DNA from: Rhizophagus irregularis | Lineage: Eukaryota | NCBI RefSeq assembly: GCF_026210795.1 | Contig: NC_089436.1 | Location: forward strand, 2,108,001-2,172,000 | Reading direction: 5' to 3' | DNA length: 64,000 bases | Shown here: in pieces, positions 4,416 through 63,602 of the stretch | Layout of the letters: every line of letters begins with the position of its first letter | Numbering within the stretch: position 1 is the first letter of the stretch | Made by a program: the position numbers and the translations under genes | The notes under the pieces: generated by a model | Seen by the model: only the letters and a program-made list of their open reading frames with translations | Databases searched by the model: none | What the model was told of the DNA's origin: nothing

Positions 4416-4595
4416 TATACATACCATTCAAATTATTTTGGGCTGCCGTAATTATAAGTAAAATTCCAAATTCAATTATAGTATCCCAAATTATTTTGGC
4501 ATTTTATTTACATAGTAAATTATATATAAATTAAATAAATTATAGCATTTCAAATTATAATTATACATCTCAAAATAATTTGGGCAACATATATA
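4416..4595 (-). mobile_element. hAT-type MITE, family A (tatacatgc TIR), decayed copy
   Basis: Reverse-complement copy of 44850-45026, flanked by ctttatat / ctttatag (8-bp TSD, 1 mismatch). Confidence 0.8.
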
Positions 4596-23075: not shown

Positions 23076-23740
23076 TCCATATTTAATATAATAATTGTTA
23101 TATCGTGCAAAACACCTTTAAAGCATTGGCAAAATTTGTATATGATCTTCAAAAAAAAAGGCAGGAAAGTACTAAGAAATTTGTTTATTGATATATTTGT
23201 CATCATTTTCCATTTTTCGAATTAATAAGACTATTTTCGAAACTATATATAATTCTAATTTTCTAATTATTTTTATTGATTGATTGCTTTACAAATCATA
23301 ATTTTCGTATTTTATGATTTGTTACTTTTAATTTATCATTTATAATCAGATTTGTGAAAAATTAAATCCTTTTGATTTGTAATTTCTCTAAAAAGAAAAG
23401 GAATTTCCGATACATGATTCCGATATATGGATATATGATTTGAGATTTAGGAATCGATCGGATTATATACATATCGGCGATTATTGCCCCAAATGTTATT
23501 TAACGTAAAAAGCCATTAAAATATAATAATGTATATTAATTAATTTGCATCATTATCATCTTGTCTTATGTAGGAAAGTGAAATACAATAAGTATGGCAC
23601 GTGCCAAAAAGAACCAGATTAACCAGATTTATGTAGTACAATTTCTAAATAAAGGTGCCAGCACGTGATGATTTGCAATACTAATTTTGATTCGTACATC
23701 TCATCTGATTTTTTTTATTCCGTCTAAATTATTTTTTCTC

Positions 23741-38052: not shown

Positions 38053-40333
38053 TTGATAAATCAAGAATTACTTGAAATTATGATTATATTACCTTCTGGT
38101 AAAACTTTGATATGGAAAGCAGTAGATATAAGTGATCAAAGAGGACGTGCAATTGATGTTATACCAAAAATAGAAGAAATAATATTAAATGATTTAAAGG
38201 AACAATCAATTAAAGTAGCTTGCGGCATATGCTTCAGCATGGTAAGTTGATTATGTAATTATTATATATTAAATTTATTTATTTTTTTTTTAATTTATTT
38301 AATGAATTTTTATTTTATTTAGATGGCAGCTTTATCTCAAATACTTTCAATATGTATTTTTGTCATACTTTGCATATCAATGCAATTTAGCTGTTAGAGA
38401 GATTTTTAAAGAATCTAGTATCTTGAAAAATGCATCTACTAATGCCATCAAATTGGTTAATTATTTTAATCATTCTAATAATGTATATTTTATTGGAAAA
38501 TTACAAAATATTCAACGAGAACTTTATTCAAAATATTATGCAATAATAAAATCTGGCGATACAAAATAGAATTCTTATTATGAATGTTATTTAAGTTTAA
38601 TTCAGACTAAATAGACATTGAAGGTAAGTGAAATTTATTAATTTAAATATTAAAAATTAAATACTAATTTATTATTCTTTAAATAGAATTTAGTTACTCG
38701 TTATGAGCCTTCTGAAGAAACTTCATCAAAATCTACTGAATTATATTTTCCAACTGATATTTGCCAAATAATTATAGGTGATTTATTTTGGTCCCGTATT
38801 TCGCAACTTGCAATATTAATAAAACCTTACTGTGGAGCATTTGGTAAATTGCAAATAGATAAGGCTCAACTATATGATGTTGCTTTATCTTTTGGATATT
38901 TTATTAAATTTTGGGAGCAGAATACAGATCAATTCTTGTCTGAAGGCATAATTTCACATTTTGAAAAATGTTGGAATAACTGGGAACAATTTATACTATT
39001 ACTTTCTTTTGTACTTCATCCCAAATATCACCTTGACAAATTTAATCCTAACTTAGAAACAATCAATTTTGTAACAATAGGAATTTGGCTTGATTATTAT
39101 TATAAAGCTTGGACATCTGAAAAACCAACAAAACTACTTGCATAATTTGAATCTTATTGAGTTAAAAAATTACCTTTTAATAATGAAATATATGAGCAAT
39201 TTGGTGATGATGTTTTGGCATATTAGTACTATTGTTCTATAATGTGTAAGGAATTAGGATTTATAGCAACAAAATTTTCAGTATTTGTGTAAACTCAGTT
39301 TCTATAGAACAATTATTCTTATTTATAGGATTTTTGCACACTTCTTGAAAAAACAAATCAAAGGCAATATTATTTTATTTTGAGTAAATTTATTCATCGC
39401 ACGTGCGATGCATCGCCACTTTCCTTTTTTGTAAATTATTTATGTTGATCAACCTGCTTATACATCGCCACCCCCCTTAAAATGGCAATGATAAACATAA
39501 AAATTTGCATCGCACGTGCGATAAATAAATTATTTCTTTTATTTTTTATATATTATTGATATTTACTAATTATTTTTTTTTTATTTATTTAGCATGAAAG
39601 AGTTGTAGCTATAGCTCAACTTCAAGCAGATATTCATCAGACTGAAAATAAAAAAAAAAGGAAACATGAATCTGAAAAAATAAAGGTAAATATTGCACCA
39701 CCAATTATTGAATCAGCAGGTGAACAAGAAACTGGTAATACAGAACAAAATGAAGCTGAAAGAATACTTGAAGACTTACAAGAAACATCTGATTACATAA
39801 CAACTGAACAAGATTGGATTGAATGTCTGAATGAATGGAATGAGCTATTAATGAAAGAAGAAAAAGCACAAAATTTGGATGTTACAAAGGAATCATTAAA
39901 TTGTAGTGATAATGATCTATTAAATTCATATATATATCCACCCTACTATTAATGCTGATGCAAAGTGGAACTTACGAGATCTTTTTATTAGAGAATTGGA
40001 AAGGCCAGAATTTATATCTGTATTTTCAAAATTTAATTAATTAAATATGTAATTAGTTTATTATAATTTTTTTCATTCAATAACATAATATTAATAATAA
40101 ATAATTATTAAATAATGGTTTAAAATTTAGTAATGCTAATATAAATTTGTAATTAACATTTATTTTATATAATGTTTACCAGAATTAGTTATAATTTTGG
40201 CCCAAATTAATTTAATAATCACGTGATCTATCTAAAACTTGTCCAATGAAAAAAGGTTTTAGTTTTGGACAGATTTTGGATAGAATTTTGGGCAGATGTC
40301 CAAAATATCAAATTGTTCAATTACCTAATACTG
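38053..40333 (+). pseudogene. 5'-truncated, decayed hAT transposase (to ~40040) plus probable right terminus (..ttacctaatactg 40333)
   Basis: LIWKAVDIS, FAYQCNL, GDTK*NS, LHPKY and acidic tail, with many stops and frameshifts; paralogous to 45497-48158. Confidence 0.85.
39387..39531. mobile_element. Small palindromic MITE in an intron of the hAT relic
   Basis: aatttattcatcgcacgtgcgatgca ... tgcatcgcacgtgcgataaataaatt inverted ends. Confidence 0.65.
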
Positions 40334-44849: not shown

Positions 44850-45026
44850 TATACATGCTGCCCAAATTATTTTGGGATGCCATAATTATAATTTGGGATG
44901 CCATAATTCATTCGGTTTATATATAATTTACTATGTAAAGTGCCAAAATAATTTGGGATGCCATAATTGAATTTGGGATTTTACTTATAATTACGGCAGT
45001 CCAAAATAATTTGGGTGGCATGTATA
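44850..45026 (+). mobile_element. hAT-type MITE, family A
   Basis: Near-identical to 7035-7463 without its insert; TSD gcataggt / gtataggt. Confidence 0.9.
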
Positions 45027-45335
45027 GTATAGGTATTAATAATTTTGAGATCCACCCCAGCTTTCACTAATTTCTCACAAAATCAATATTAGTATGAGAC
45101 GCCTGCTTTTACTTTTTTTTTATCATTATTTTTCAGTCCTAAATTTATACTATGGTGGTGAATATCCCACCTATTAGCAGTCTTAGCACAATATTTTGCC
45201 CTCTTCTCTATAGTAAACTTTTTTTTTCTTTTATCTGATATGAGAGCCCCTATCTTCTTTTTACTAAATTTGCATCAGGTTAGGAGATCTTTAACATATT
45301 TACGACCCTTCCAATCCTGTAGTAATGCATTAAGT

Positions 45336-48307
45336 TAGTGTTGGCCATTGGCCATTTGGCCAGGCTTAGACATTGCCTGTTTGGCTGACCAAAAAATGGC
45401 CAAAAATTTTTATATATAAATATTAAAAAAAAGTAACTACTTAAAATTTGTAACATTTAAATTCAATTATTTAATTCATTTTTATTATAAATTTAGTTAA
45501 TTTGAAGTATTTTCATTAACAAAAAATGGGACATCTAAATTATCAATAAAAATGTCTCTTATATTCCATTTAGCTTCATTATCTAATGCAGGATGTGTTC
45601 TATTTAATAAAAATTTATCAATATTTATATCATCATCACAATGTAAATCAGTTACAGCACTCAACTTTGCTTCTTTTTCCTGTAATAATAATTACCTCCA
45701 TGTATTAATTAGATTATTCCAATTTAATGAAACCTGGAATTTATTATTTTCACCTTCTTCATCTGAATCATCATCTTGAGTGTTAGAATTTCCTTTTTGG
45801 ATTTCTAAGTTAATAGGATTTTTTTCTTGATTCTCTAAATTTGTATTATCATTACTATTAATAATTATAGGAACTATTAGTTCAGCAATATTTTCTTTCA
45901 TTTTTTGTTGTTAAATAGTTTTCACTTCATCAACCCTATATTTATATGAAATTGCAGCACGTAATTTGCTCATTTTAAGTGTTTTTTCATACTATTTAAA
46001 AAATAAATTATTTATTATTACATTAAATTATAATTTTTTTAAAATAATATTATTTTACTTACATTTAATCTATTGCACCTTTTGGTATGTAGAAATCCCA
46101 TATTTGACCAAAGCCTTTCTACTGATGCTGCATTAATACAGATTCCAAAAATTTGTTGTGCGATATATTCAAGTTCTTTTGCTAATGGAACAACAAATCC
46201 CCAATATTTTAAAATATCATCTTCAAATTGATTAATTGTTTGTTCATCAAAAGGATATATATTTCTTCTAAAATTTTCATATTCACGTAAAATTGATTTT
46301 GATTTTGTTTTCGTCCAAGCTTCGTAATAATAAATTAGCCACTTACTAAGATATACATGATTTAAATTTGGGATATTATCTTTAAATTTTGACATCTTGT
46401 ATTTAGGATGTAGGAGCCATAATAAAAGTAAAAGTGGCTGTTCCCAACTTTGCCATCTTGTTTGAAGTCGATCAAGTATTTTCTCATTAAGTTCTATGTT
46501 ATCATAATCTTTCCAAAATTTTATAAAATATCCAAATCCATGCAGTACTTTATGCAGTCGTGCTTTATCACATTGTAGAATATCCAAAATTATACAGTAT
46601 GGTTTAAGTATTTTTACAAGTTCTGAAAGTGATTGCCACCAGGTTTCGTCAAGTAGAATATAAGAAATATTATCAGGTAGATATAATATATTATCAGAAC
46701 TTTGATAAGATGTTGATTGCTCAGAAGATTCAAATTTTGAACCTAAAGTCTTTAGAAAAATAGAAACAAATTATTTTCAAATGTTATATAAAAATAAATA
46801 AAACAAAATATATTATAATACCCGTAATGCCCCTTTTGATTTAATTAAAGTGCGAAAACATTCATAATGGTTATTCCATCTTGTATCATTTCCAATTGCG
46901 ATTTGAACATATTTTCCATATGATTCTTTTTGTAAAGTTCGAAGCTGTTCAATAAAATATTTATGAAGTGATGATTTAAAGTAAAGTGCAATTTTTATTG
47001 CCTTTATTGATGCTTGCTTAAATTTTTCAGATTCTTTAAAGATTTCGCCTACAAAAAGATTCATCTGATGTGCAAAACATGGAAAAAACGTAATATGCAG
47101 ATATTTAAGTCGAAGCTTACGTCTGTTAAAATATAAAATATAATTAATATTTACATAAAATATTAAATAAATATTTTAATAACTTAATTTTTAAAAAAAT
47201 ATGCAAATATACCGTGCAGCAGCATAACTTGGAGTACTATCAGTTACAACAGAAATAAGATTAACTCCCATTTAATTAATTTTCTTAAACATTGTTTCAG
47301 TTTTTTCAATAACTTCTTTCCATCTTTCTAATTCACTGCTTACATCTACTGCTTTCCAAATTATTACTTCCCCTTCTGATGTAATAAAAACAGAGCCAAG
47401 AATATTCTGATTTAACACATTAGTCCAACCATCAAAGGCTAAAGTAACACCAACAGAATCATTCATTAATTTCTTAGTCATTTCATTTTCAAGAATTTTT
47501 GATTCGTCATTTAATATACGTCCTCCTAAAGTTTTACGTCCTGGTAAAATTAATGCTGGATTTAAAAAATGAAAAAGTTCTTGAACTTTCTTATTTTCCA
47601 CCCATCTTAAAGGAAAACCTGCAGAACTGTTGCTTGAATCATTAATTTTTCAAATATAGCTTATTCACCCTTTATAAATAATCAAGTTGCAAGTGGTCTA
47701 GTAATGAAAGAATCAAGTGTACCAACTGATGAATTATTGCTGCCTATATAAAAAAATATTAATAATAGTTTTAATATAAAATTATCAAGTATTATTATTA
47801 ATAAATAAAATAAAAGATAAATACTTCTCAATGATATAGAAGTTATAGCACTATGAACTGAACCAGTTGATTCTCTACGCAATCTTTTTGAACTTACAAT
47901 ATTTTCGTCAAATTCATTAATTTCCATTCTTTTTGTTTCTGATGCAAATAATTCAAAAAATATTTCAGGATATTTATTTTTAAAATGTTGACATTTTTTC
48001 AAGTGATTTCTAACTCGTTCAGTTTTAAATGGAAATTTTTGAAGCAATGCATTTGGACAGCCATTAACATCTCTACACGCAATACAAATACAATAATTTT
48101 GCCAATTATCAGCTTTTTCTGGTAATATTTTCACAAAGGTTTTAAAATTAGCAGCCATTTATTTATATTTTATTTGTTTTTAGTTGGTGAGTTAGTCAGA
48201 TTTGAACACAAAAATCAAATTATAAATACCGGAAAAAAAAGATGATAAAAAAAAAAGATTGCTGATCTTGGCCAATCTGGCTGATTTAGCCGTTAGCCAA
48301 TCGGCCT
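45336..48307 (-). mobile_element. hAT transposon with decayed multi-exon transposase (48158-45497); one TIR lost
   Basis: BED-like finger (CICIAC..HLKKC), LAFDGWTNV, CFAHQMNL, DTRWNNHY, LHPKY, ASVERLWS, with stops and frameshifts. Terminus tagtgttggccattggcc at 45336 and tggcc subterminal repeats at both ends. Confidence 0.9.
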
Positions 48308-49034
48308 TTGTGGTATCCAATCTAAAAGGCCACGTTTAAGTAAATAATTTATAAAAACACCAGATGTATTTGAATTATTTAAAATTTTTTCTAAATGCTT
48401 AAAATATTCCTTATTTCCTTTATATCAAAACGATACATTTATGTTTATTACCCATTTCAATGTGAAGTGATGCATCATGATTACTTAAAACTATATACCC
48501 AGCAAAATCTTTAGTAATTGTCTTAGGCTTGAATTCTTTGCACTCCATTGTTATATATGGTTTAGTGATAAGTGATTTTAAGTGATCATTGGCTTTATGT
48601 CATTCTCCAAAAGCCATTCCGGCTTCATTTAAAAGGACTATTAAATATTTCCAATACTTTTCTAAGATTTGATGTCGCAAAGAATAATTCTGATCTTAGT
48701 ATTTCTTTTCTAATAAAATCTGTTAAGATATTTTTTCCAGAACATGGAGGAGCGTAATACTAAAATAGTATCAGGTTTTTTATCAGGATATTATACAAGA
48801 TATGCAAATTAATTAAGAACATATTTTAAAAGAACTTTATTTTCATCACACCAAACATTTTCTATATGCTTCAATAATAGGGCTTTAAACCCTAAGAAAA
48901 AGTTGAAAAACTTTGTATTCGGTAGGGCTACATGGTGGGTATGATTTTACCACTTTTCTTCCTAGCTCAATTAAATTAATTTTATACTTAGTAATTTTGA
49001 GCTTAGATGACATCTTAAAGAAAAGACCACCATT
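48308..49034 (-). pseudogene. D5-like SF3 helicase part of a decayed primase-helicase gene
   Basis: KYVLN*FAYLV*YPDKKPDTILVLR, Walker-A-like PPCSGKNILTDFI, LKSLIT and DFAGYIVLSNH, with frameshifts. Confidence 0.75.
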
Positions 49035-50530
49035 CATTGGGAAATTTTTTGGGGAGCAGATCTGCGCAGATTTTCAGAAATTATATCTGCACAGATCTTA
49101 TATCCTGGCGCAAAACATTAAAGAAAAAATCCAATAAAAAACTGCGCAGATTTTAAAAATAACAAAGTTCTGCGCAGATTTTTAAATAAAAAACCTTCGA
49201 AATACCTCAGCAATTTTTTTTGATAAAAATCTACATCACAATAATACAAATTAATTTATTGCATTAATTACTACTAATTTATTTATATAATCAAAATTAC
49301 TTTTTTATTATTATTATATATTAACAAGTTTACAAATACAATTGAAATCTATTACTAGTCATTGCTATTTATCATCTCTTTACTGCACATTTACATGTTG
49401 TTAATGGTTTGGACATTGTTCCAGTTGGTTCGATTCCAACAAACAACAAAATAAAATAGAAAATCAGAGATGTTTGTTAGAAATAAGAAAATCATTTCAA
49501 AGTTATTACTTTCGAAATGTTTGACACGAAATCTCAGGATCTAAAAAATAAAGTAAAATGAACGTTAGTAGAACGTTTGTTAAAGAAGAATAAAAAAAAA
49601 ATCATAAAGAATTTTGAAGATATACCTTCAAATTCTTTCGTCCAGGAGCCAGAGAAAAAAACCCTACAGAAAAAAACAACTGAAACGTTAGTAAACGTTT
49701 CGCAAATTAAAAAACATGAAAGAATTTCGAAGGAATTTTACCTTCGAAATTCCGTCCAGAAGCCGTAAACCTGCAAAAAGTAAAAATAAAAGACAAACGA
49801 AACGTTAGTAAATGTTTCGTTAAATATTAAAAAAAAATTAATTTCGAAGGTAAATACCTTTGAAATCCTGAAAAAATCTCCAAGTCTGGTTCGTCTAAAG
49901 AAGCCCGGCATCCCTATATAAAGAAGAAAGAACGTTAGAAACGTTCTTTGAAAAAAAAAAAATTTTAAAGTTTCGCAACGAGAGTTGCGAAACTTACCAT
50001 TTACCCGTTTCGGGAACCTTGGAGTACCAAAACCTACAACAAAAAAGAAAAACGAAACGTTAGCTAACGTTTTGTTTAAATAAAAACAAAAAAAAACAGA
50101 ATTTCGAAGGTTACCTTAGAAATTCTGTTCAGGAGCGTCCAGAGAGCCGTGTTCCTACAAAATACAAAAACGAACATTAGAAAACGCTTCGTTAAGTATA
50201 ATTATTAAAAAAAATTTTTTTCAAAGGTTTCACCTTCGATATGGGAGACCGAACTCATTTTCGGCTTCCTTTACCTAAAAAAATAAAATACGAACGTTAG
50301 TTAACGTTCGTTTAAATAAAAAAGAAAAAAAAATTTCGAAGGGTTTACCTTCGATATGGGAGTCCGGAATTCGTTTTTGGATTCCCTTGCCTAAAAAAAA
50401 GGAAATACGAACGTTAGTTACGTTCGTCAATAAATAAAAAAAAAAAAATTTCGAAGGTTTTACCTTCGATATGGGAGTCCAGAACTCGTTTTCGAATTCC
50501 CTTGCCTAAAAAAAAAGAAACACGAACGTT

Positions 50531-51638
50531 GAGATCCCCCAATTCCCTCTGTCATCAATTTACAGAGTTGCCACATCGAACGGGCATTCTCATGGTCGAA
50601 CGAACGAATAAACGAACGAACGAATAAACGAACGAACGAACAATTAAACGAACAAGCAAATAATCGACGGCATAATTAACAAATAATATAATCAACGCAC
50701 AACAACAATATACAACAACATTCTTGGTTTACAACATAAATAGCGTTAGTAATATAAAACGTTGAACGATATAAAATAAAATTAGCTTCTCTAAATTTTC
50801 CCCAAATTATATCCACTTTTACCTTTAATTTCAAACTTCGATAGCTCTCGCTACGAATTATTACTTTAATTAACATTAAACTTCATTAACAAATAATTAA
50901 ATGAAACTTATATTTTATTGAGTTCTGTGGATGAGAACTATGGAATTACTTTGAATTCCGCTCTCTATATATACAATTTTTATGCTACTTTCTATTCTGT
51001 CTATATACTATCTTTTATGTTCTTTTTACATATTATCTTTGAACTATTTTTCTAATATACTATCTATATTTTAAATACGCTATCTTTTAATATGCTATCT
51101 TTTAATATGCTATCTTTTTATATATGTTCTTTTTAATATATTATCTTTTACGTTCCATCTTTATACTATCTTTTTATATTATCTTTTACATTATTTTGTG
51201 TTCTTTAATCTTTCTGACATTATTTTATATGTTCCTTTAATTCGCTTTATGTGTTTTGCTTATAATCTATCTTTTGTGGCTTATAATTATTCTTTCTTAT
51301 CGTTCTTATTGTTAAAGATTGCTAAGCCGCAATTGATCGACTCTATTTATCCTATTGGTTCCTTATCAATCATTCAATAAATATTACATCATGTAGATCA
51401 TTACTCTTCCTAAATGTTTATCAACATTATAGATATCACTTAGTTTATATATCACTAAAAATTTGAGTTCGTAAAAATTATGGGATTCCTATTACTCTTC
51501 CTAAATGTTTATCCTTTTCGGCTAATTATTTATCCATCTACGCCAATCCATAATTAATTTGTTCGTTCTTAATATTTAATAATTACATTTGGTGGTTGAA
51601 TTTTATCATCTTTTCGTGCTTGATATTCAACCGTTTAC
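50531..51638. mobile_element. 1.1-kb non-coding insertion without TIRs, bounded by 6-bp direct repeats
   Basis: Interrupts an array unit: aacgtt|gagatcccc ... ccgtttac|aatgtt. Confidence 0.65.
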
Positions 51639-53992
51639 AATGTTAGTTAACGTTCGTTAATAAAAATATTAAAAAAAATAAAATTTTCGAAGGGTTTTAC
51701 CTTCGATATAGGAGTCTGGAACTCGGTTTCAGATTTCCTTGCCTAAAAAAAAAAGACGAAACGTTTGTTAACATTTTGCTAAATAAAAATATTAAAAAAA
51801 ATTAATTTTTTTGAAAAGTCTTACCTCCGATATGGGAGTCCGGAACTTGTTTCGGATTCCTTTGCCTAAAAAAAAGAGACAAAACATTAGAAACGTTTCG
51901 TTAATAAATTAATTAAAAAAAAAATTAATTTTCGAAGGTTTGTTTTACCTTTGATATGGAAGTCCGGAACTTGTTTCGGCTTCCTTTACCTGAAAAAAAA
52001 GAAACAAAACATTATAAACTGAACGTTTCGTTAATAAATTAATTAAAAGAAATAATTTGAAAGTTTTACCTTCAAACAGAACTTTCAAATGGGTCCGGAA
52101 CATACCTTTAGCATTCTGGACCTATAAAATACAAAAACGAACGTAACTAACGTTCGTTAAAGTTAAATTATAAAAAAAAAATATTTCAAAGATTTTTACC
52201 TTCAAAATAAACGTCCGGAGCCATTCTTTGGCGTCCAGGACTTATAAATATAAAAATGAACGTTAATTAATGTTCGTTAAATAAAAATATAAAAAAAAAT
52301 TCAAAGGTAAAACCTTTACCTTCGAAATAAGAGTCTGGAGCCGTTCTTCGGCGCCCAGGACCTAAAAACATGAAAAACGAACATTAATTAACGTTCGTTA
52401 AAATAAAATTAAAAGAAATATTTCGAAGGTAAACTTTACCTTCGAAATAAACGTCTGGAGCCATTCTTCGGCGCCCAACACCTAAAAACATGAAAAACAA
52501 ACGTTAATTAACATTCGTTAAAATAAAATTAAAAAAAATATTTTGAAGGTAAACTTTACTATCGAAATAAACGTCCGGAGCCATTCTTCAGCGCCCAGGA
52601 CCTATAAAACGTAAAAATGAACGTTAATTAACGTTCGTTAAAATAAAATTAAAAAAATATTTCGAAGGTAAACTTTACCTTCGAAATAAACGTCCGGAGC
52701 CGTTCTTTGGCGTCCAGGACCTATAAAACGTAAAAATGAACGTTAATTAATGTTCGTTAAAATAAAATTAAAAAAATATTTCAAAGGTAAACTTTACCTT
52801 CGAAATAAACGTCCGGAGCCGTTCTTTGGCGTCCAGGACCTATAAAACGTAAAAACGAACGTTAATTAATGTTCGTTAAAATAAAATTAAAAAAAATATT
52901 TCGAAGGTAAACTTTACCTTCGAAATAAATGTCCGGAGCCGTTCTTCGGCGCCCAGGACCTAAAAACATGAAAAACGAACGTTAATTAATGTTTGTTAAA
53001 ATAAAATTAAAAAAAATATTTCAAAGGTAAACTTTACCTTTGAAATAAACGTCCGGAGCTGTTCTTTAGCGTCTAGGACCTATAAAACGTAAAAATGAAC
53101 GTTAATTAATGTTTGTTAAAATAAAATTAAAAAAAATATTTCGAAGGTAAACTTTACCTTCGAAATAAACGTCCGGAGCCATTCTTTAGCGTCCAGGACC
53201 TATAAAACGTAAAAACAAATGTTAATTAATGTTCGTTAAAATAAAATTAAAAAAATATTTCGAAGGTAAACTTTACCTTTGAAATAAACGTCCGGAGCCG
53301 TTCTTTGGCGTCCAGGACCTATAAAACGTAAAAATGAACGTTAATTAATGTTCGTTAAAATAAAATTAAAAAAAATATTTCGAAGGTAAACTTTACCTTC
53401 AAAATAAACGTCCGGAGCCGTTTTTTGGCGTCCAGGACCTATAAAACGTAAAAACGAACGTTAATTATAGTTCGTTAAAATAAAATTAAAAAAAATATTT
53501 CGAAGGTAAACTTTACCTTTGAAATAAACGTCCGGAGCCGTTCTTTGGCGTCCAGGACCTATAAAACGTAAAAATGAACGTTAATTAATGTTCATTAAAA
53601 TAAAATTAAAAAAAATATTTTGAAGGTAAACTTTACCTTCGAAATAAACGTCCAGAGCCGTTCTTCGACGCCCAGGACCTAAAAACATGACATATGGGCT
53701 GATCACTGACGCTCATTTCACTAAGTACATTTTGTGACATGATCCTGATCTGTACTACCAAAATGCGTGATAACTTGAATTTCGAGCCAATTGTCGTTCT
53801 GATTAACAAGAAAAAAAATTTTTTTACTATTGAAATCATTTGTTTCAAATGAGTTGTAAATGGGTTTGGAAGAGTTCATCGCGAAATTAAGAAAATATTA
53901 AAAGAAGGTATTTTTATTTTTAATATTCAAGTTTTAAAAGTTTTTTTAATTAAGAAACAAAATTTATATAAAACAACTCTTTATAACGCGTT

Positions 53993-56562
53993 ATGGTAAG
54001 TAATTTTACTTTGTAAAATAATATATGTATTTATTAACTTAACTATTAATTATTTACAAGTAGACTGCAAGAATTTTTTACCATAATTATCCTAATGATC
54101 CTTATATATATGCTCAATACACTTCTGGAGGAAAAAATTTTTGTTCAAAATATAAGATAATAACACTCGGACATTACCCACAGAATATTAAATATACACA
54201 AAAAAATAACCATAATGCTGTTCAATATCCGATACCAGATGGATATAATGTGAAAACGGAAATTGCAGATCAAATGCTATGTTGTGAAACAAAGTATACT
54301 TTGGCAAATAAGGTTTTATACACTATTACATGGAAAGAAAGACGAGCAGAATGGATGGTATCTAGTGAGCGATCTGCTAGTGGGGCTGTAAATGAGTTCC
54401 TAAAGGTATCTTAATTATTTTGCGCAACACGTTTTATGCATTTTTACTATTTTATTAATTATTTTATATCAATGTAGAAAACTAATCGTAAAAAATCTCA
54501 AATTTCTGGAGTACATGTCTTTGGATTTGATATTAAAATATTGCATCAATTACGAATTGAACAACCTAGAGAACTATCAACTGATAAAATTACTATTGAT
54601 AAAAGAAAAAGACCACTTAATGAAATACAATCATTGTCACAGCAAAACAAACGATATGCATCATTTGGAAGAGATGCTTACAAGAAAGTTAAAAACCTTA
54701 TCTTAAAACATCGAATGGTCTCAGAATCTGAGGAGCCAATTTGTATACGTAGTATGGAATTAGAAAATGGGAATAATATCATTAATATAAAATATAATTC
54801 ATTATTGGATCTTACAAGGTTAGATGCATATGTACGTGTATGTGATGAGACCTTATTAAGTCGTGATGGGTATCGAAGGCTTGCAACTATAGAAGCACGA
54901 TTGATACGGGAGTATCAAGTTGCACATAGGCGAATTGAGATCACTAAATTAATAAATAACCAAATAAACATTGGAACATTTAATCTTGATAAAGGACTTG
55001 ATCAGCAATCTATACTTGATGATAATGATGAACCTCAAGGTAATCCTGATGGAATTATAGTTGATGAACAAGAAGTTGGAAATGGTGTTTATCGATCAGT
55101 CCGAACCCTTCTTCAAACACTTATTCCTATTTGGAATAAATCAGTTCCACCAATTCTACAATCAGGAGATACAATAAATTTAAAACTCAGTGGTGATGGA
55201 AGAAATGTGGGTCATAAACAGAATCATGTGATGCTAACTTTCTGTCTGTTAAATGAAAAAGATGAAGTGTTAAAGCCAGACTATCAATATTGGTAAGATA
55301 GAGTTTATAGCATATGTTTTTTTGTTAAAATAACTAAATAAGAAATAGTATTTGTCTTTATGTGGGAAAAGAAAAATACGAAACATTGGCCAAAGTTGGC
55401 CATTTATTCAAGCTTCAGCTTTTGGACCTTAAAGAAAATGGAATTTATGTTAATGGCATACACTGGCCAATTGAGTTTTTTCTTTCTAGTGATTGGAAGT
55501 TTATGTATAACGTAATGGGATTAAATGCACCAAACTCAAAATATTTTTGTTTATATTGTGAATGTGAATCTAATATTCGCTGGGACATGAATTTAAAGTG
55601 GCCAATTAATAAAAATACGCAATGTAAGTTTAAAATATTTTTATTAAATAAAGCATTTATTTATTATATTAACTTTAACATTTAGTTTAAAATTTTTTTA
55701 ATTATAGCTAAGAAAAAACCCGAATTATTTCCTGTTATCAAACAGAAAAATTACATTCCTGACGAACTACATTTATTATTACGTATCTCAGATGTATTGA
55801 TGGAATGTTTTTTTAATAACTTATTTAAAAAAAAGGAATTTGAACGGGTAATTAAAAGTCAAATCGAACAAACTATGAAATCTATTCAAGTACATTTTGA
55901 ATTTTTTAAGTCACAGGGTGGAAAATGGGATTGGACTTCGTTGATGGGACCTAATAAGAAAAAAGTTCTACAACATTTTCCAGTCACTAATTTTATCTCA
56001 GGAAGACGTGGTGAAGATATTCAAAAACTTTGGCGTGATTTTTACGATCTATATATGTTTATAAGACGAACAGATCTTAAGAATTCCGAGATTGATGATT
56101 TTGAAATTAAAGTAAAAGAATGGATTTATTTGTTTTGTAGGCCAAATCAAGGTCAGATAAATTCATCATCACAAGTACCAGGTTTATACAGAAAGGAAGA
56201 TGTCACACCGTATATGCATATCTTTTCGCAGCACATTCCTGAATTTTTGCGAATCCTTAAAGAAAAGAATTTGTCATTGCAGTTTTTTTTTGCTTCAAGT
56301 ATTGAAAAAAAAAATCATAACCAGGTAAATATAAATTATTAAATTATTAATTATTAAACAAACTTTAATTACTTTTAAATTTTTCATTTAGGTTCGGTTA
56401 TTTTTTGGTGGCACTACTATGGGTGGCGGGATTAAAGGAAAATCTGTAGTACAAGATATAATGGAATTTGAAAATCGTCAGCTATTTTATTTGCTTAATA
56501 ATACTTCGCAAGAAATCCAGATACGAAATATTAATGCAGAAGATAAAGAAAACAACAATTAA
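53993..56562 (+). CDS. RAG1/Transib/Chapaev-like DDE transposase with FYRN/FYRC-like N-terminus; 6 exons, 740 aa, uninterrupted
   Basis: Exons 53993-53995, 54064-54405, 54478-55292, 55349-55623, 55708-56324, 56392-56562 (2223 nt). Motifs KLSGDG, SDWKF..GL....SKYFCLYC, DELHLLLR, SLMG, TPYMH....H, SSIEKKNH. Confidence 0.85.
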
Positions 56563-56612
56563 TAAGGTAAAATTTTAAACTTACTATATTGATTTATATT
56601 CTGAAGTGGTGG

Positions 56613-57319
56613 TCACGGTAAAATATAACAAAACTTTCCTTTAATAGATTCTTCAGGTGATTTTTGATTATTCAATGTTGCTATTTGTTTCTCATTACTA
56701 TATTAAAAAAAAAAAAAATATGCATTTTAAAAATAGGTTTGCGTTATAAAACATACTTTTCCTGAAATTCTCCAGAATCAGTAATGAAATTACAGGTCAT
56801 TCTTCCCAACGTGAACTCTCTGTTATTCTCTGATAATGTCGTTTGATTCCACATAAATTTGACTTGATACGTATTTTCATAATCCTCAAGTAAAACATAA
56901 CCCTTAGTATTAGTAAAGGGATTCTGTCGGAAATTCCAATGATCATAGTGAAATATTTCCTTAAGTTTAGCTGCTCCTGCGAATCCTTCAAAACAACATT
57001 GATATTTGTGTTTAGCAGGACTATATTTAAACTTTTCTTCATTTTTAAAAAGATATACAAACACATTTTCTGGGAAAGTTTCGATAGAAAAACGTTTTTT
57101 CCCAATAGCATGACGGGAAAATCCAAGTTTTTTTTTAATAAGAACAATAAAAGAGTTAATATAGTAAGACATTTGTTCCGAAGAGGGTTGGGGAAGCGAA
57201 CAAAAGTGGGGTATTGTTTTGTTATGTGAATGTTTATTTCTTTTGTGAATAAGCAATTTTTGATAAGTCATAAAAGCTCTAAAACAAAGCTTGCAACTGA
57301 TAGAAGACTGGCTCGCCAT
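56613..57319 (-). CDS. C2H2 zinc-finger partner protein of unknown function; 2 exons (57319-56757, 56697-56613)
   Basis: CKLC..F....L..HKRNKH at the N-terminus. The homolog in copy 2 has the same phase-2 intron after DSGEF. The stop at 56613 is probably CGA>TGA (ILP*PPLQ vs ILPRSPLQ). Confidence 0.8.
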
Positions 57320-59352
57320 AACTACGACACGACCTCTGAAAAAAAACTAACTAATATCTGATCAGCTAATCAGAGTTCGTGATTATCACATTGTTGATCA
57401 AGGTGAAAGAATTGAAGATGAGCGAAATTAGCCCATATGAAAAACGAACGTTAATTAACGTTCGTTAAAATAAAATTAAAAAAATATTTTGAAGGTAAAC
57501 TTTACCTTCGAAATAAATGTCCAGAGCCGTTCTTTGGCGTCCAGGACCTATAAAATGTAAAAACGAACATTAATTAATGTTCGTTAAAATAAAATTAAAA
57601 AAAATATTTCAAAGGTAAACTTTACCTTTGAAATAAACGTCCGGAGCCGTTCTTTGGCATCCAGGACCTATAAAACATAAAAACGAACGTTAATTAACGT
57701 TTGTTAAAATAAAATTAAAAAAAATATTTTGAAGGTAAACTTTACCTTCAAAATAAACGTCCGGAGCCGTTCTTTGGCGTCCAGGACCTATAAAACATGA
57801 AAAACGAACGTTAATTAACGTTTGTTAAAATAAAATTAAAAAAATATTTCGAAGGTAAACTTTACCTTTGAAATAAACATCCAGAGCCGTTCTTTGGCGT
57901 CCAGGACCTATAAAACGTAAAAATGAACGTTAATTAACGTTTGTTAAAATAAAATTAAAAAAAATATTTCGAAGGTAAACTTTACCTTCGAAATAAATGT
58001 CCGGAGCCGTTCTTTGGCGTTCAGGATCTATAAAACGTAAAAACGAACGTTAATTAACGTTCGTTAAAATAAAATTAAAAAAAATATTTCAAAGGTAAAC
58101 TTTACCTTTGAAATAAACGTCCGGAGCTGTTCTTCAGCGTCCAGGACCTAAAAACATGAAAAACGAACGTTAATTAACGTTCGTTGAAATAAAATTGAAA
58201 AAAATATTTCGAAGGTAAACTTTACCTTCAAAATAAACGTCCGGAGCCATTCTTTAGCGTCCAGGACCTATAAAATGTAAAAACGAACATTAGCGACGTT
58301 CGTTAAACAAAAATATAAAAAAAAATTTTGAAGGTAAAGGTTTTACCTTCGAAATAAGAGTCCGGAGCCATTCTTTGGCATTCAGGACAAGAAAATAATA
58401 AACCGAACGTTGGACAACGTCCGGTATATAAAAAATATTAGTTTCGAAGTTTTACCTTCAAAATAGAGTCTGGAACTGGTACTTTCAGCGCTCTGGACTT
58501 ACAAAAAAAAAAATAAAACGAACTTTAGCTAATGTTTCGTTAAATTTTTTTTTTTGAAATGGAGTCCAGGACGTACCTTTTGTGTTCTGGATTAATAAAA
58601 CAAACATTTTCTAACGTTCGTTAAATAATACTAATATCAAAGTTTGAAATAGAGTACCTTCGGCGTTCTGTAAAATGTATTTTTTGAAGGAGATAAAGGA
58701 GTCCGACATCTTTTTAGTCCGAATCTCCTGCATGTTGCAGATTATATGCCGAATGTTGGACGAATTTGCCTTAAAGACTCCGAACCTTGCAAATAAATTT
58801 TTTTTTTAAAAAAAAATTTCTTTGATAAGTTTCAAAGCTTAAAAAACTATAATAGAAATATTTTTTCTTTGGAATCTTTAACAGATTATTTCCTAAAAGG
58901 TGTTGTAGAAAAAATTATTTCACTTCTTTAGTAATAAGTGTTGTAGAAAAATTTTTTTTTTAAAGTCTTGTAAAGTTTTTTTTTTAAAGAGTATTGTAAA
59001 AAAAATTAAATCAAGTTAGAGTTAATCAAAGTTTAAATATTAAATCAATGATGAAATTGCAGATCGAACTGATATTTTAATGAAAAAAAAGCAAAAATCT
59101 GCAAAATTGCAGACTTCTGCATAAATTTCACATAAAAAAAAGCAGAAATCTGCAAAATCGCAGATTACTGCAGAAATTCATACATAAAAAATCAGAAACT
59201 TGCAAAATTGCAGATTATTGCATAACTTTGTAAAAAATAAAAAGCAGAAATCTGCAAAATCGCAGACTTCCGCATAAATTCACAAAAAAAATGCGGAGAT
59301 CTGCTAATTTTACAGATCTCTGCAGTTCTGCATCTTAAAAAATTTCCCGATG

Positions 59353-60331
59353 TTAGAATCCTTAAGTTTTAATACCCATAATTTTGTATCAGTTTAAATA
59401 CATGCTATTATTGCTTGAATGACTTCGTATATAGTATTGCAAGTGAATTTTTCTTTTGTATCACACATGTCAATTAGATCATCCCAAATGAAGGATTTTA
59501 CGTTTCAAGTTTTTGATCCTGATTGGCACAGTAGCAATAAAATCTATATATTTTATTTTTTCATATAATATAGACATTTTTATTAATATGCTTCCGATTA
59601 CATAATGGGCAGTATGATAGAAAGTTGCAAATTAATAGGAACAAGTCTGAAATATTATTTGAGGAAGGTGAGAGAGTTATACCCTTTGACACAATTATCT
59701 TTAAGTAACGTTTTCACAAATTCAAATTCTGCTTAATTCGTTTCATCATTAGTATCATTACACCCTTTAGCTTCTAGTTTTGAAACAATTAAGAGAGGAT
59801 TTTCTGCGATTTCTAATTCATCATTTGGCAAGCGAATCATGAAGTCAAAAATGGTTCTATCTTTTGGATGTATTGCTTTTTTCACATGAACGTACTTCTT
59901 TATTTTTTCATTGTACTTGAACAAACTAAGCATTCGCAAGGAAAATGAACGTTTATTTACAATATTATTTATAATATTATTTTCCTGAAGAGACGCTAAA
60001 AGTTTCTTATGAACAAGTTCAGTAAATAATGCAACTTGAACATCAATAATTTTAAGTCTCATACTGAAAGTGAAGATATGGAGAGACATTTTTTTGCATT
60101 ACTACTACTGGCAATAGTTGTAGTTTTACGATCCCAGTCTGAAAATATATCTTTACACATTTTTGCAAAAGCGCAGACAAGTGAATTTTGTATCTCTTTG
60201 CCTATTAGTTTAGGTTCAATAGAATTATATATCTCTCGTGGCAAATCAAAGTCTATAATAGGCTGGAATGGCTCATTTCCATCAATAAATTCGTGTAAAA
60301 AATATAATTGTTTCCGAAATTCAATTGGCAA
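59353..60331 (-). pseudogene. Archaeo-eukaryotic primase (PrimPol-like) part of the decayed primase-helicase gene
   Basis: LHEFIDG..PIIDFDL (DxD motif), K.SLH, SLRML and a decayed Cys-containing segment, frameshifted; continuous with 48308-49034 across the insertion. Confidence 0.75.
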
Positions 60332-60652
60332 ATCTGAAATCCAAAATTACAAAATCGTAATTAATTACGTATTCCGAAATTCTGAAATTTGCATAATAGT
60401 ACGAAATTGCGAATATCTCGGGATATAGTGATCAGATTTCGATGATCTTACTACCATTCGATTCATCTTATCGAGACGAATCTAATGATATGTGTTTCAT
60501 TTCTATAGCACCGATATTAATGGAGTAAAATTACTATAAACATTTAATAAATTTTGGTGTCGAAGCACGATCTAGTGATTAGATTTGAATGAATTTACCA
60601 CCATTCGATTCATCATAACGAGACGATTCTAATGGCGGTAAGATTATCTTTC
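60332..60652. repeat. Fragment of a gtctcNNNgagac-motif repeat element, target of transposon copy 2
   Basis: ccattcgattcatcttatcgagacgaatctaatg (~60453) and ccattcgattcatcataacgagacgattctaatggcggtaagat (~60601). Confidence 0.65.
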
Positions 60653-61100
60653 CATATGGGCTGATTTGAATCTGATCACATAGTAAATTTGGGTGATAAG
60701 ATCAGGTGTAACGTGATACTATTATGCATATAAGCTGCATATCATAGTAAAAATTTGTGACTTTATCATGAAGAACCAATCTTCGTTAAATCAAAACAAC
60801 TGTAATCGCGAGTTGCAAATTGGTTTCAGATTGGTTTTTGCTGCATCGCAAAGAGTTAGGGAAAAAACTTTTAAAAAGTTTTTCGCTATAAAGTTAGTTT
60901 TGCTTGTAATAATAAAATATTTTTACGCGTATTCTGTATTAAAATGGCGTATGTGTTAGGGTCAAGTCAAGAAAATAACTGAAGTAACCAAAGTGAAACG
61001 CTATTTTTTATAAACGGTACTTTTTTTCTTTAATTATAATTAAACTTGGGATTATATAGTTAATATATTACCAAATACTTTCTAATAAAATATTATTTAG

Positions 61101-63598
61101 ATGGCTATTTTACGAGAAATTTTTCTTATCAATATCCTGCAAGTTCTTTTATAACATCACAATACATATCAGGAAACCGACCCTTTTATTTTTGGTATAA
61201 AGTAGTGTCTTTAGGATATTATCCAACACCAGTTAAACTTACACAAAAAAATTCTAAAGATTGTATTCAATATCAAATACCTGATAACTATAGTGTTGAA
61301 ACTGAAGTTTCTAAAATGAAGATCCGTTGTGAAACAAAGTATCAACCAAATGGAAAAGTAAGGTTTACAATTGTGTGGAAAGAAAATAGATCAGAGTTGA
61401 GTATATACAGTGATCGCTCTGCAACTAGTGTTGTTAATGCGTTCTTAAAGGTATTATTATTATTTTTTTTTCAAAACTGAACTTTTAATAATTATTTTTA
61501 TTGATCTTATTAATTATACAGAAAAATAATCGCTCAAATTCTAATTTATCGGGAGTATACATTTTTGGGTTTGATATTGGACGATTGCATGAATGTCGCT
61601 TAGAAACAATGGGTGCTTCTATTACATTAGTTAACAAAAGAAAAAGGCCTCTAACAACGATTCAAACCATCTCAGGGCAAAATAAAAGATTTGCATCTTT
61701 AGGCAGAGAATCTGGAAAGGCAATTAGATCTTTGATTAAAAAACATCAATTGACTGATGAAACTAATCAACCAATTATTCATATTCATAAAATTGAATTG
61801 GATTTTAATGGCGAAAGTATTATTTTAACTTACAATCTACCTGATAATAAAAATGAACTTACAAAAATAGATGCTATTGTTAGAGCTTGTGATGAATCAT
61901 TGTTAGCACGTGATGGATATCGGCGGCTTGCTGCAGTTGAAGCATTTCTTATACGTGAATATTTGATAGCTAATCGTAGGGTTGAAATTACAAATCTTAT
62001 TAATAAAGATCTTAGAATTGGAACATTTAACATCAATAAAAGTGATAATGATCTGTTAATCATTTAGAATCTGATGATGGTATAATAGTTGATGAGGCAG
62101 AAATTGGAAATGGTGCATACAGGTCAATTTACACGATTTTACAAACTTTAATACCATTATGGAAAGAATCATCTCCTGCAATCATCAATTCTGGTGATAT
62201 ACTTAAACTTAAGCTTGGTGGAGATGGTCGCAATGTTGGTCGTAAGCAAAGCCATGTAATGATGACGATTTGTCTTTTAAATGAAGGAGAAGAAGTCTTA
62301 AAACCTGAACATCAATACTGGTAATAAATTTATTGTGATTTAATAACCAAAAATTAATTTAAATTATTAAATTTTTTTTTTTTAGCATTTGTCTTTATGT
62401 TGGACGAGAAAAATATGATGACCTTGCTAAGATAGGAAAATTATTTCAACATCAGCTTCTTGATCTCCAAAATAACGGAATATATGATAAAGATGGGAAT
62501 CATTGGCCAGTGGAATTGTTTTTTTCTGGTGACTGGAAGTTTATGTATATAATAATGGGATTGAACGCCCCAAATTCGAAGTATTTTTGTTTATATTGTA
62601 ACTGTCAATCTGAGTTACGCTGGGATATGGAACAAAATTTTGAAAATTCAGGAAATCATGCCTGTAATGTTAAAGGTTTTTTTTTCATGATTATTTTATT
62701 ACCAATTAATTAAAACTATGAATATTTACTAATAATTAGGTGAAAATAGAAAACCAGCATTATTTCCTGCAATAAATCAAGAAAATTATATTCCTGACGA
62801 ATTACATCTACTTTTGCGCATTGTTGATGTTTTGATGGAATGCTTTTTTAATGATGTAATTAAAAAAAAAGAGTTTGAAAAAAAATTAAATTAGAGATTG
62901 AACAAGCAATGCAAAACATTAAAGTTCATTTTGAGTTTTTCAAGTCAAGATCTACTAGTGGAAAGTGGGATTGGACTTCTTTAATGGGTCCTGATAAAAA
63001 GAAAGTATTGGAACATTTTCCAATTTCTCAATTTATTTCTGGCACTCGTGGACAAGAAATTGAAAAACTATGGAAGGAATTTCTCCGGCTTTATAAAGTT
63101 TTAAGAAAACCTTTTCTTTCAAACCAAGAAATTGATGCGTTTGAAATTGATGCCAAACAATGGATCCGTACCTTTTATTGTGCAACTGAAGGACATCCCA
63201 ATTCAATATCACATAAACCTGGATTATATCGCAAACAAGATGTAACCCCTTATATGCATGTTTTCGCACAACACATGCATCAATTTATGCGCTAATTAAA
63301 GATGAAAAACTTATCATTACGATATTTTTCTACTTCTAGTATTGAAAGAAAAAATCACGATCAGGTAATTTGTAAATTTATTTAAAAAGGATATTTTATT
63401 ACATATATTAATATTAATAGACCTTTTAATTAGGTTCAGTTATTTTTTGGTGGTACCACTATGGGTGGTGGAACTGAAAAAAAATTGGTAGTATATAATA
63501 TTATGTCTTTTGAAAATCGTCAACTTTATTACTTAGTTAACAAAACTCCCAAAGAAATTAATACTAGGAATATTGATTCTAACAAAAAAGTAAATTAA
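61101..63598 (+). pseudogene. RAG1/Transib-like transposase of copy 2, disrupted
   Basis: KLGGDG, GDWKF..FCLYC, DELHLLLR, TPYMH, SIERKNH with equivalent intron positions to copy 1. Frameshifts near 62055 and 62880 (A-run) and a TAA at 63293. First exon unresolved. Confidence 0.88.
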
Positions 63599-63602
63599 AA
63601 TA

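What the first reader, a model, noticed from the sequence alone, without database searches (positions are those of the whole stretch)
49330..58800. Transposon-borne satellite that reads as a ~35-micro-exon spliced transcript
Seen: on the minus strand nearly every ~120-bp unit has a pyrimidine-rich acceptor (TTTTATAG/TTTTAG), a GC-richer 29-56-nt block and an AAG|GTA donor. The central units are near-identical 42-mers that are open in all three frames. Toward the 3' end (49500-52100) the blocks diverge in sequence and length (41, 40, 36, 56, 29, 38 nt) while splice signals and intron palindromes persist. A plausible first exon lies at ~58790-58658 and a terminal exon with AATAAA near 49440-49300. 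No transposase of the host element's own was found. Inference: a multi-exon non-coding RNA, or a combinatorially spliced repeat peptide, built by exon-intron tandem amplification and carried as transposon cargo. It resembles a repeat-spacer array processed by the spliceosome and might act as guide, small-RNA source or decoy.
Basis: partly seen in the sequence, partly recalled or inferred. Interest (0 to 1): 0.82.

Follow-up and report, generated by a model that had tools for sequence, protein, structure and literature searches.

The report
Transposon-borne spliced micro-exon RNA family
In the root-symbiotic fungus Rhizophagus irregularis, a stretch with DNA-transposon ends carries about 36 tiny exon-plus-intron units, most with predicted hairpins over their splice signals; RNA data show the 42-base exons of a related copy joined to each other, so this is likely a family of heavily spliced non-coding RNAs, and this particular copy is probably broken.

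Summary
Observation confirmed. The window is R. irregularis. There are 36 exon blocks: 36/36 have GT donors and 32/35 YAG acceptors. Anchored on the intron palindrome alone, 25/28 minus-strand versus 1/27 plus-strand units have a YAG at the right distance. One raw-read run and one contig set show a paralog's 42-nt exons joined exon-to-exon at the predicted sites (2 of 4 runs). No splicing was seen in the diverged 3' part (0 of 4 runs). Twelve R. irregularis gene models reuse these exons, mostly in the same order but in all three frames, and no frame shows selection, so the RNA is likely non-coding. The unit has CA..TG ends (15/16 TIR) and a TT duplication, and it splits a primase-helicase relic, so it likely transposed. 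Predicted hairpins cover 32/36 donors and 18/35 branch regions. This copy carries two nested insertions and three damaged acceptors. The repeat-spacer or guide idea is not supported. Function is untested; I found no description in six literature searches.

The parts
49035..49050 (+). Left terminal inverted repeat of the outer element (CA.. end); TT duplication at 49033-49034
   Evidence: 15/16 match to the right end
59337..59352 (-). Right terminal inverted repeat (..TG end on +); TT duplication at 59353-59354
59054..59304 (.). Subterminal ~50-bp repeats; the GCAGA/TCTGC motifs also occur inside the left end (about 49056-49180)
58658..58790 (-). Candidate first exon (donor AAG|GTA; transcription start not mapped)
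   Evidence: no RNA laid on it
58456..58590 (-). Exon 2 (58498-58456, acceptor damaged to TAA) and a degenerate unit near 58590-58545 that lacks its donor
57440..58388 (-). Central array, part A: 8 units of 42-nt exon + ~78-nt intron (exon 3 acceptor lost)
53691..57439 (+). Nested 3749-bp DNA transposon in an intron: CATATGGGC ends, RAG1/Transib-like transposase on + (54064-56516), a second ORF on - (56744-57346)
52118..53686 (-). Central array, part B: 13 units (exon 23 acceptor damaged to TAA); a paralog of these exons is joined exon-to-exon in RNA data
51701..52121 (-). Exon 24 (52 nt) and type-2 exons 25-27 (41, 41, 42 nt)
   Evidence: order matches gene model P0050
50530..51638 (.). Nested 1109-bp insertion with TG..CA ends and a 4-bp near-duplication, inside the branch-point palindrome of intron 27; read as a solo LTR (inference)
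50234..50505 (-). Type-2 exons 28-30 (42, 42, 41 nt)
49510..50154 (-). Diverged 3' exons 31-36 (40, 29, 56, 29, 38, 31 nt)
   Evidence: order and phase match gene model P0049
49260..49446 (-). Terminal exon (acceptor uncertain in this copy), ending in an AATAAA-rich tract
49397..49448 (+). 52-nt piece with a B-box / T-loop-like motif (GGTTCGATTCC at 49427) and complementary ends, antisense to the spliced transcript; the most heavily covered piece in RNA reads, with several different flanks
   Evidence: no ARAGORN or Rfam hit
60062..60346 (-). Flank: N-terminal AEP_C962R-like primase fragment of the gene interrupted by the outer element
   Evidence: score 0.96, 201 shared features; recognition 2234, just under the tool's 2300 mark
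48423..48599 (-). Flank: DUF5906 (D5-like helicase) fragment, inferred C-terminal part of the same interrupted gene
   Evidence: E 1.1e-5; 26.4 bits, below the 27.6 cut-off

Best explanation
The stretch 49035-59352 has DNA-transposon ends and is likely a non-autonomous CMCT-type element whose 5.5-kb core is one non-coding transcription unit of about 37 micro-exons, inferred to have grown by tandem duplication of a 120-nt exon+intron unit; exons of a paralog are joined exon-to-exon in RNA data, while this copy is probably inactive. How it works. SHOWN: splice signals lie on one strand only; exon-to-exon joins fall at the predicted sites in a paralog; at least 7 annotated copies lie on 5 contigs of one assembly; there are TIRs and a TSD; two nested insertions interrupt the array. 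PREDICTED: each unit folds into three hairpins, one in the exon, one over the 5' splice site and one over the branch point. INFERRED: a transposase of the CMCT clade moves the element in trans; the RAG1/Transib-like family nested here, with similar CAT..GGG ends, is the nearest candidate. What was conserved during divergence of the 3' units is splicing plus the hairpins, not a reading frame. The mechanism I commit to (about 0.35 on its own): splicing removes the two splice-site hairpins and leaves a chain of about 35 short A-loop stem-loops. That chain would act as a multivalent RNA scaffold or decoy, most plausibly for the element family's benefit against host RNA silencing. No binding partner or phenotype has been tested.
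For: Strand-specific splice signals, 25/28 vs 1/27. X24 reads (7 and 9 at the two ends of exon 18, 3 and 5 at exon 19) and an X9 contig (243 nt, depth 55, against an unspliced contig at depth 3.45) continue into exon-like sequence exactly at the exon ends. By my comparison, the X9 loose ends match the exon at 25/30 and 26/30. Gene model P0049 follows exons 31-37 in order, with 5/5 phase agreement. Twelve R. irregularis models use all three frames, each a singleton cluster. No excess of synonymous change and no deficit of stops in any frame. TIR 15/16 and TT duplication; AEP and D5-helicase fragments on either side, same strand, in N-to-C order. Donor hairpin z<-2 in 32/36 units, branch region 18/35, random windows 8/100, candidate ordinary introns 0/4. 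Exon ends fold better with their own intron than with another's (p 6e-5 to 1.3e-3 over four unit sets). Three of 8 predicted branch-hairpin pairs have double-sided changes.
Against: No GT..AG joint in the 3' part in 4/4 runs (15 of 17 joints and 24 of 262 loose ends shown). In one search, X22 (58 reads) showed no exon-exon end among the rows shown, X10 laid nothing, and the joint table was empty. X24 and X9 are only guessed to be RNA, and the DNA control for the joined form was not available. Gene models may rest on ab initio prediction from the same signals. The fixed-register covariation test of the donor hairpin was not significant (p 0.19-0.40). In this copy exon-stem variants break pairs as often as they keep them (6 vs 6), and the expressed paralog also has stem mismatches. 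Only 7 of 20 exons folded singly reach z<-2, and none of exons 31-36 does. Transposon ends were shown only for this copy. Nothing tests the decoy role.
Confidence: 0.6

Rival explanations
1. Functionless satellite. A once-spliced unit was amplified by unequal recombination inside a transposon. Splice signals hitch-hike, low-level transcripts are spliced as a by-product, and the palindromes are kept symmetrical by DNA-level template switching, not by selection on RNA.
For: CpG-biased decay in central exons (13.7% at CpG sites vs 4.3% elsewhere); no selection on frame or exon stem; fixed-register covariation not significant; family found only in R. irregularis among annotated proteins; low expression. 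DNA palindromes would co-vary without RNA selection (inference).
Against: AG, GT and a branch motif persist in 13 units whose exons have diverged in sequence and length; the same exon order recurs at several loci; the hairpins sit on the splice signals and not elsewhere.
Confidence: 0.25
2. The spliced RNA encodes an amphipathic 14-residue repeat protein (VLDAKERLRTFISK frame), varied by exon skipping.
For: This frame has no stop in 20 central exons and gives a 414-codon open stretch in the predicted spliced product. The loose-end exons of the expressed paralog are also open in it (read). 14 residues are two heptads (inference).
Against: Only 0.2 stops are expected in that frame from the mutation spectrum, and synonymous changes are 9 vs 9.0 expected. 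No ATG opens the 414-codon stretch. Gene models switch among all three frames, and exon 36 is read in different frames in P0049 and P0052. All models are singletons, and P0049-P0051 have no Pfam family at cut-off.
Confidence: 0.07
3. The exons are disposable and the products are intron- or hairpin-derived small RNAs (mirtron or host-gene logic), or siRNAs triggered by spliceosomes stalled at the hairpin-masked sites, as in Cryptococcus.
For: Perfect or near-perfect palindromes in most introns. PolyA runs hold many unspliced reads of related hairpin introns. The species makes abundant TE-derived small RNA (PMC8647823 passages). Stalled spliceosomes trigger siRNA in C. neoformans (PMC6643885 passage).
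Against: A whole central intron does not fold end to end (z -0.28). The stems are 10-14 bp, short for Dicer (recalled). In about 3,590 plant-AGO-bound fungal small RNAs, 18 motif look-ups gave no clear array read; one 4-read sequence matched an intron end at 19/22.
Confidence: 0.12
4. The joined 42-mers come from an intronless DNA copy (retrocopy or ancestral minisatellite), and the intron-bearing arrays are not spliced today.
Against: The joins fall exactly at AG|GT; X24 has RNA-like uneven coverage; a retrocopy would itself imply splicing.
Confidence: 0.05
5. A repeat-spacer array that acquires variable exons as guides.
For: Constant intron 'repeats' alternate with variable blocks in the 3' part.
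Against: The variable blocks share motifs with the central exon and recur in the same order in independent paralogs, so they are inherited, not acquired.
Confidence: 0.01

Closest known systems
Firre lncRNA with its exonic RRD repeat (PMC4820808, passages read)
   Same: Non-coding multi-exon RNA in which a repeat makes up whole exons (RRD: 7 of 13 human exons, 11 of 23 mouse exons), giving a multivalent mature RNA.
   Different: Firre repeats are local to one conserved locus; here the unit is dispersed over at least 5 contigs and sits between transposon ends. The exons are 29-56 nt, number about 36, and have predicted hairpins over the splice signals. No function is tested here.
Non-autonomous CMCT-clade (CACTA/EnSpm-Mirage-Chapaev-Transib-Plavaka) DNA transposons (PMC12730594 passages; presence in R. 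irregularis, PMC11075540 passages)
   Same: CA..TG termini, short TIR, 2-bp TSD, no own transposase.
   Different: The body is a micro-exon array rather than a deleted transposase gene or a captured gene fragment. The ends match neither PlavakaA (TGT) nor PlavakaB (CATCA).
Fungal same-gene intron duplications (SGD) and introner-like elements (PMC3609843 passages)
   Same: Near-identical introns in one gene with flanking exons duplicated too (segmental SGD); structured introns as in ILEs.
   Different: 35 related introns in one unit, against at most 16 SGD members per species in that survey. The paper reports SGDs as no more structured than ordinary introns. ILEs insert alone into unrelated genes and are about twice normal length, while these are about 78 nt and travel with their exon.
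Schistosome micro-exon genes (recalled, no call)
   Same: Long runs of very short exons that could be skipped combinatorially.
   Different: Those are protein-coding with a signal peptide and frame-preserving exons; here the frame is not conserved and many exons are not multiples of 3.

Membership tests
CMCT-clade DNA transposon (non-autonomous) | 5'-CA..TG-3' termini with terminal inverted repeats | tested here: met
   15/16 TIR at 49035-49050 and 59337-59352; definition
CMCT-clade DNA transposon (non-autonomous) | 2-5 bp target-site duplication | tested here: met
   TT on both sides; 2 bp is weak alone, but the flanks read as two halves of one primase-helicase relic
CMCT-clade DNA transposon (non-autonomous) | Own DDE transposase (absent in non-autonomous members) | tested here: not met
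   No stop-free stretch of 100 codons in the 5.5-kb core other than one 125-codon read-through of exons and introns; the transposase inside belongs to the nested element with its own ends
CMCT-clade DNA transposon (non-autonomous) | Dispersed copies sharing the same ends | not testable with these tools
   No genome held; 0 hits in metagenome, viral and prokaryote collections; dispersion shown only for the exons
Firre-like exon-repeat lncRNA | Repeat confined to exons of a spliced transcript | tested here: met
   (paralog). Introns are repeated as well
Firre-like exon-repeat lncRNA | No conserved reading frame | tested here: met
Firre-like exon-repeat lncRNA | Repeat local to one locus | tested here: not met
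   7 models on 5 contigs of one assembly
Firre-like exon-repeat lncRNA | Nuclear retention or protein binding through the repeat | not testable with these tools
   needs experiments
Introner-like elements | Near-identical introns in unrelated genes | tested here: inconclusive
   RNA reads show related hairpin introns with other flanks, but the flanking genes could not be identified
Introner-like elements | About twice normal intron length, with a stable whole-intron fold | tested here: not met
   73-91 nt vs 67-71 nt for 4 candidate ordinary introns; whole-intron z -0.28
Segmental same-gene intron duplication | Intron duplicated together with flanking exon sequence | tested here: met
Mirtron cluster | Intron ends pair into one pre-miRNA hairpin and yield end-defined small RNAs | tested here: not met
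   Fold not met for one central intron; small RNAs checked only in plant-AGO lists
Protein-coding micro-exon gene | Conserved frame, frame-preserving exons, purifying selection | tested here: not met
   (definition recalled)
CRISPR-like repeat-spacer array | Unrelated, locus-specific spacers | tested here: not met
   3' exons shared in order among paralogs

The most novel reading that the evidence does not exclude
A DNA-transposon family in a mycorrhizal fungus encodes its own regulatory RNA instead of a protein: a roughly 36-exon transcript in which nearly every 5' splice site and branch point is gated by a hairpin. Splicing would then switch the RNA between a hairpin-rich, spliceosome-stalling form that feeds the siRNA pathway and a spliced chain of A-loop stem-loops that titrates silencing or splicing factors. 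A tRNA-like B-box piece in the last exon would act as an antisense Pol III promoter or a boundary.
Probability: 0.15. Interest if true: 0.88.

Novelty: new variant of a known kind. Interest (0 to 1): 0.62.

Why it matters
Cut-and-paste transposons need no RNA intermediate, so a non-autonomous one that keeps about 35 working splice-site pairs with matched hairpins, but no reading frame, implies selection on an RNA (or on splicing itself) for an unknown reason. At least 12 'hypothetical proteins' in R. irregularis annotations appear to be mis-called pieces of this family. It is also a ready test system: dozens of sibling introns per copy and several copies per genome allow a direct test of whether splice-site hairpins or intron density govern RNAi and methylation of transposons in a fungus rich in small RNAs.

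Tried and rejected
No RNA holder was listed for the stretch; this is not used as evidence. No whole genome is held, so copy number and the ends of paralogs were not counted. Motif scans found 0 hits in metagenome contigs, viral contigs and prokaryote genomes. Rfam gave only 5 sub-threshold miRNA-family matches in subterminal or T-rich DNA, and ARAGORN found no tRNA. PDB gave nothing for the nested transposase fragment, PHROGs gave nothing convincing for the flanks, and a phage tblastn gave nothing. A frame-3 exon+intron ORF found no homolog, although frame-3 models exist, so that search was insensitive. RNAalifold on the donor regions was misaligned across loops and showed only 4 pairs, 1 with a double change. 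The fixed-register covariation test was not significant. The z of -4.9 for eight joined exons was set aside because shuffling destroys periodicity. The bacterial promoter scan is irrelevant for a fungus. Of the 13 hits, P0060 (pseudoscorpion repeat protein) and P0059 (19% identity, no exon match, name not looked up) were dropped as chance. Supplement searches of PMC11982788 for 6 motifs (U and T spelling) found nothing. The supplement of PMC10234402 could not be read, so RNA support for the individual gene models is unchecked. Earlier-finding look-ups by sequence and place returned nothing.
Full report
Organism and layout. A transposase fragment inside the region is 96% identical to an R. irregularis protein, and all 48 hits are from Glomeromycotina. 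The finding lies in a 10,318-bp unit, 49035-59352, bounded by 16-bp inverted repeats (15/16; CA..TG ends) and a TT duplication. Subterminal repeats lie inside both ends. The right flank holds an AEP_C962R-like primase fragment (score 0.96, recognition just under the tool's mark) and the left flank a DUF5906 D5-like helicase fragment (E 1.1e-5, just below the curated cut-off). They are on the same strand in N-to-C order, about 1.6 kb apart once the unit is discounted. I infer that the unit inserted into a decayed primase-helicase gene. CA..TG termini with 2-5 bp TSDs characterise the CMCT clade (PMC12730594, passages), which is present in this species (PMC11075540, passages). Two later insertions lie in introns. 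One is a 3749-bp transposon (53691-57439) whose transposase family resembles RAG1/Transib proteins (scores 0.85-0.88, a lead only; the D, D, CxxC, LH, YxH and E motif order agrees with what I recall for that family). The other is a 1109-bp piece with TG..CA ends. The core is 5460 bp.

The observation. I parsed 36 exon blocks plus a terminal exon. All 36 donors are GT; 32 of 35 acceptors are YAG, and three are damaged. In 13 diverged 3' units AG and GT are invariant while neighbours vary, but that count is partly circular. Anchoring only on the intron palindrome, the first downstream AG is a YAG at 12-32 nt in 25/28 units on the minus strand and 1/27 on the plus strand. Only the consensus 42-mer is open in all three frames; the real central exons have 0, 6 and 5 stops.

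Is it spliced? Laid on two central units (4 runs), raw reads of X24 and a contig of X9, from different studies, cover the exon only and continue on both sides into exon-like sequence exactly at the predicted boundaries. For X24, 7 and 9 reads do so at exon 18, and 3 and 5 at exon 19, of 19 laid. The X9 contig is 243 nt at depth 55, against an unspliced contig at depth 3.45. By my comparison, the X9 loose ends match the exon at 25/30 and 26/30 and do not match the intron. Their diagnostic variants are absent from this window, so the expressed copy is a paralog. Against this: X22 (58 reads, mostly on intron palindromes of other loci) showed no such end among the 12 of 14 rows shown; X10 laid nothing; the joint table was empty; both positive runs are only guessed to be RNA; and the DNA control was not given. 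On the diverged 3' part four raw-read runs gave no GT..AG joint (15 of 17 joints and 24 of 262 loose ends shown). Splicing is therefore shown for the family's central exons, not for this copy.

A family, and not a protein. A profile of the 14-residue exon translation found three R. irregularis gene models. A full HMMER search with one of them gave 13 hits, of which 11 are R. irregularis models including the query. In all there are 12 models, each a singleton cluster; 7 carry the OCT59 tag and lie on 5 contigs. No other fungus appears. P0049 runs through central exons, a type-2 exon, exons 31-36 and the terminal exon in this window's order, with 5/5 phase agreement for exons 31-36. The models read the central exons in all three frames, often switching within one model. 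Among 23 distinct variants of the central exons, synonymous changes and stops match neutral expectation in every frame. The simplest reading is a non-coding transcript on which gene finders place chance ORFs. Caveat: these models may be ab initio. One published annotation used RNA-guided BRAKER2 plus Nanopore refinement (PMC10234402; abstract, passages and sections 8, 18, 25 read). That the OCT59 models come from it is my recollection, and its supplement could not be read.

Structure. A central unit folds into three hairpins: exon bases 1-29 with an A-rich loop, a 14-bp stem over the donor, and a stem over the branch point (whole unit z -5.5). Donor regions reach z<-2 in 32/36 units (11/13 diverged) and branch regions in 18/35 (10/13 diverged), against 8/100 random windows and 0/4 candidate ordinary introns. 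Exon ends fold better with their own intron than with another unit's (p 6e-5 to 1.3e-3 in four unit sets). A fixed-register pair count did not confirm this (p 0.19-0.40). Three of 8 branch-hairpin pairs show double-sided changes. These palindromes are symmetric in DNA, so RNA selection and DNA palindrome repair are not separated. Exon hairpins reach z<-2 in 7 of 20 exons tested, none of them among exons 31-36. The array is CpG-rich (observed/expected 2.1-2.6 vs 0.9 outside) and decays fastest at CpG, consistent with a methylated, silent copy.

How it most likely works. Shown: one-strand splice signals, exon-to-exon joins in a paralog, dispersion, transposon ends, nested damage. Inferred: growth by tandem exon+intron duplication, with older rounds at the 3' end and a recent burst in the middle; mobilisation in trans by a CMCT transposase; and conservation of splicing and hairpins rather than a frame. 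One annotated model, P0055, joins exons 33-34 to a fragment of the same transposase family (85% to P0018). That shows a second locus where the two lie together, but not which came first. I commit to a structured non-coding RNA acting as a multivalent scaffold or decoy (about 0.35 for that step), ahead of a functionless satellite (0.25), a small-RNA source (0.12), a repeat protein (0.07) and an intronless-DNA artefact (0.05). The small-RNA reading has context: abundant TE small RNAs (PMC8647823, passages) and stalled-spliceosome siRNA in Cryptococcus (PMC6643885, passages). It found no support in a list of about 3,590 plant-AGO-bound fungal small RNAs (PMC13106029; passages, 18 motif look-ups and part 1 of 12 of supplementary file 6) or in the supplements of PMC11982788. 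Those lists do not cover the fungus's own Argonautes.

Comparison and novelty. It works most like Firre with its exonic RRD repeat (PMC4820808, passages) but fails the 'local repeat' criterion. It is a segmental same-gene intron duplication at larger scale than the fungal survey reports, and it fails the length and whole-intron-fold criteria of introner-like elements (PMC3609843, passages). Six full-text searches (listings only, except the papers named above) showed no description of this family; subscription papers and repeat libraries were not searchable. Earlier AI notes on other genomes describe similar non-coding exon-intron arrays. They gave me the Firre and SGD leads but are unchecked and not independent support, and they suggest such arrays may recur in fungi. 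Verdict: real; a new variant of a known kind (exon-repeat non-coding RNA as cargo of a non-autonomous DNA transposon); interest 0.62.

Noticed in passing
window 49397-49448 (+): tRNA-like piece: the only perfect B-box in the window, in a 5-bp stem, with complementary ends. RNA reads pile up here (depth about 130-290) with several different flanks and a common 5-nt longer variant; with that variant I can draw a D-armless cloverleaf with a TCA anticodon-position triplet (by eye, not computed).
   Followed up: partly
window 53691-57439 and 60653-63600: Two copies (67% DNA identity over 2.4 kb) of a transposon with CATATGGGC ends and a RAG1/Transib-like transposase; the first has a divergent second ORF with a C2H2-like motif (seen by eye) and a weak DUF7953 match.
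   Followed up: partly
P0055 (gene model GLOIN_2v1815132): Exons 33-34 of the array fused to a fragment of the same transposase family at another locus: a second association of array and transposase.
   Followed up: partly
window 48200-49034 and 59353-60400 (-): Decayed AEP + D5-like primase-helicase gene of large-DNA-virus type, split by the outer element.
   Followed up: partly
window 14271-19176 (-): Gene with N6-adenine DNA methylase / Eco57I-type domains (E 1.7e-13) and a weak TaqI_C match nearby, resembling a bacterial restriction-modification methylase in a fungal genome.
   Followed up: no
window 27905-29096 and 35740-36937: Two copies (87%) of a ~1.1-kb element that is almost wholly palindromic (foldback-like); its sub-repeats recur at 30443, 32610-33300 and 60420-60650.
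   Followed up: no
window 4411-4595, 7035-7209, 44850-45031: Three copies of a ~180-bp MITE-like element with 40-bp inverted ends.
   Followed up: no
window 46039-48158 and 38267-39950: hAT-like transposase relics (DUF659; weak Dimer_Tnp_hAT) in opposite orientations.
   Followed up: no
window 23672-24886 (+): RsmB/F-type (NOP2-like) RNA methyltransferase gene, apparently an ordinary host gene.
   Followed up: no
RNA reads on window 49928-49962: Dozens of polyA reads from another locus carry an unspliced intron of about 77 nt with the same branch-point hairpin but different exons, hinting at frequent intron retention or at related introns elsewhere.
   Followed up: no
P0051, P0062: More diverged paralogs carry an additional 13-14-residue repeated block upstream of the central exons, suggesting independent exon bursts in different copies.
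   Followed up: no
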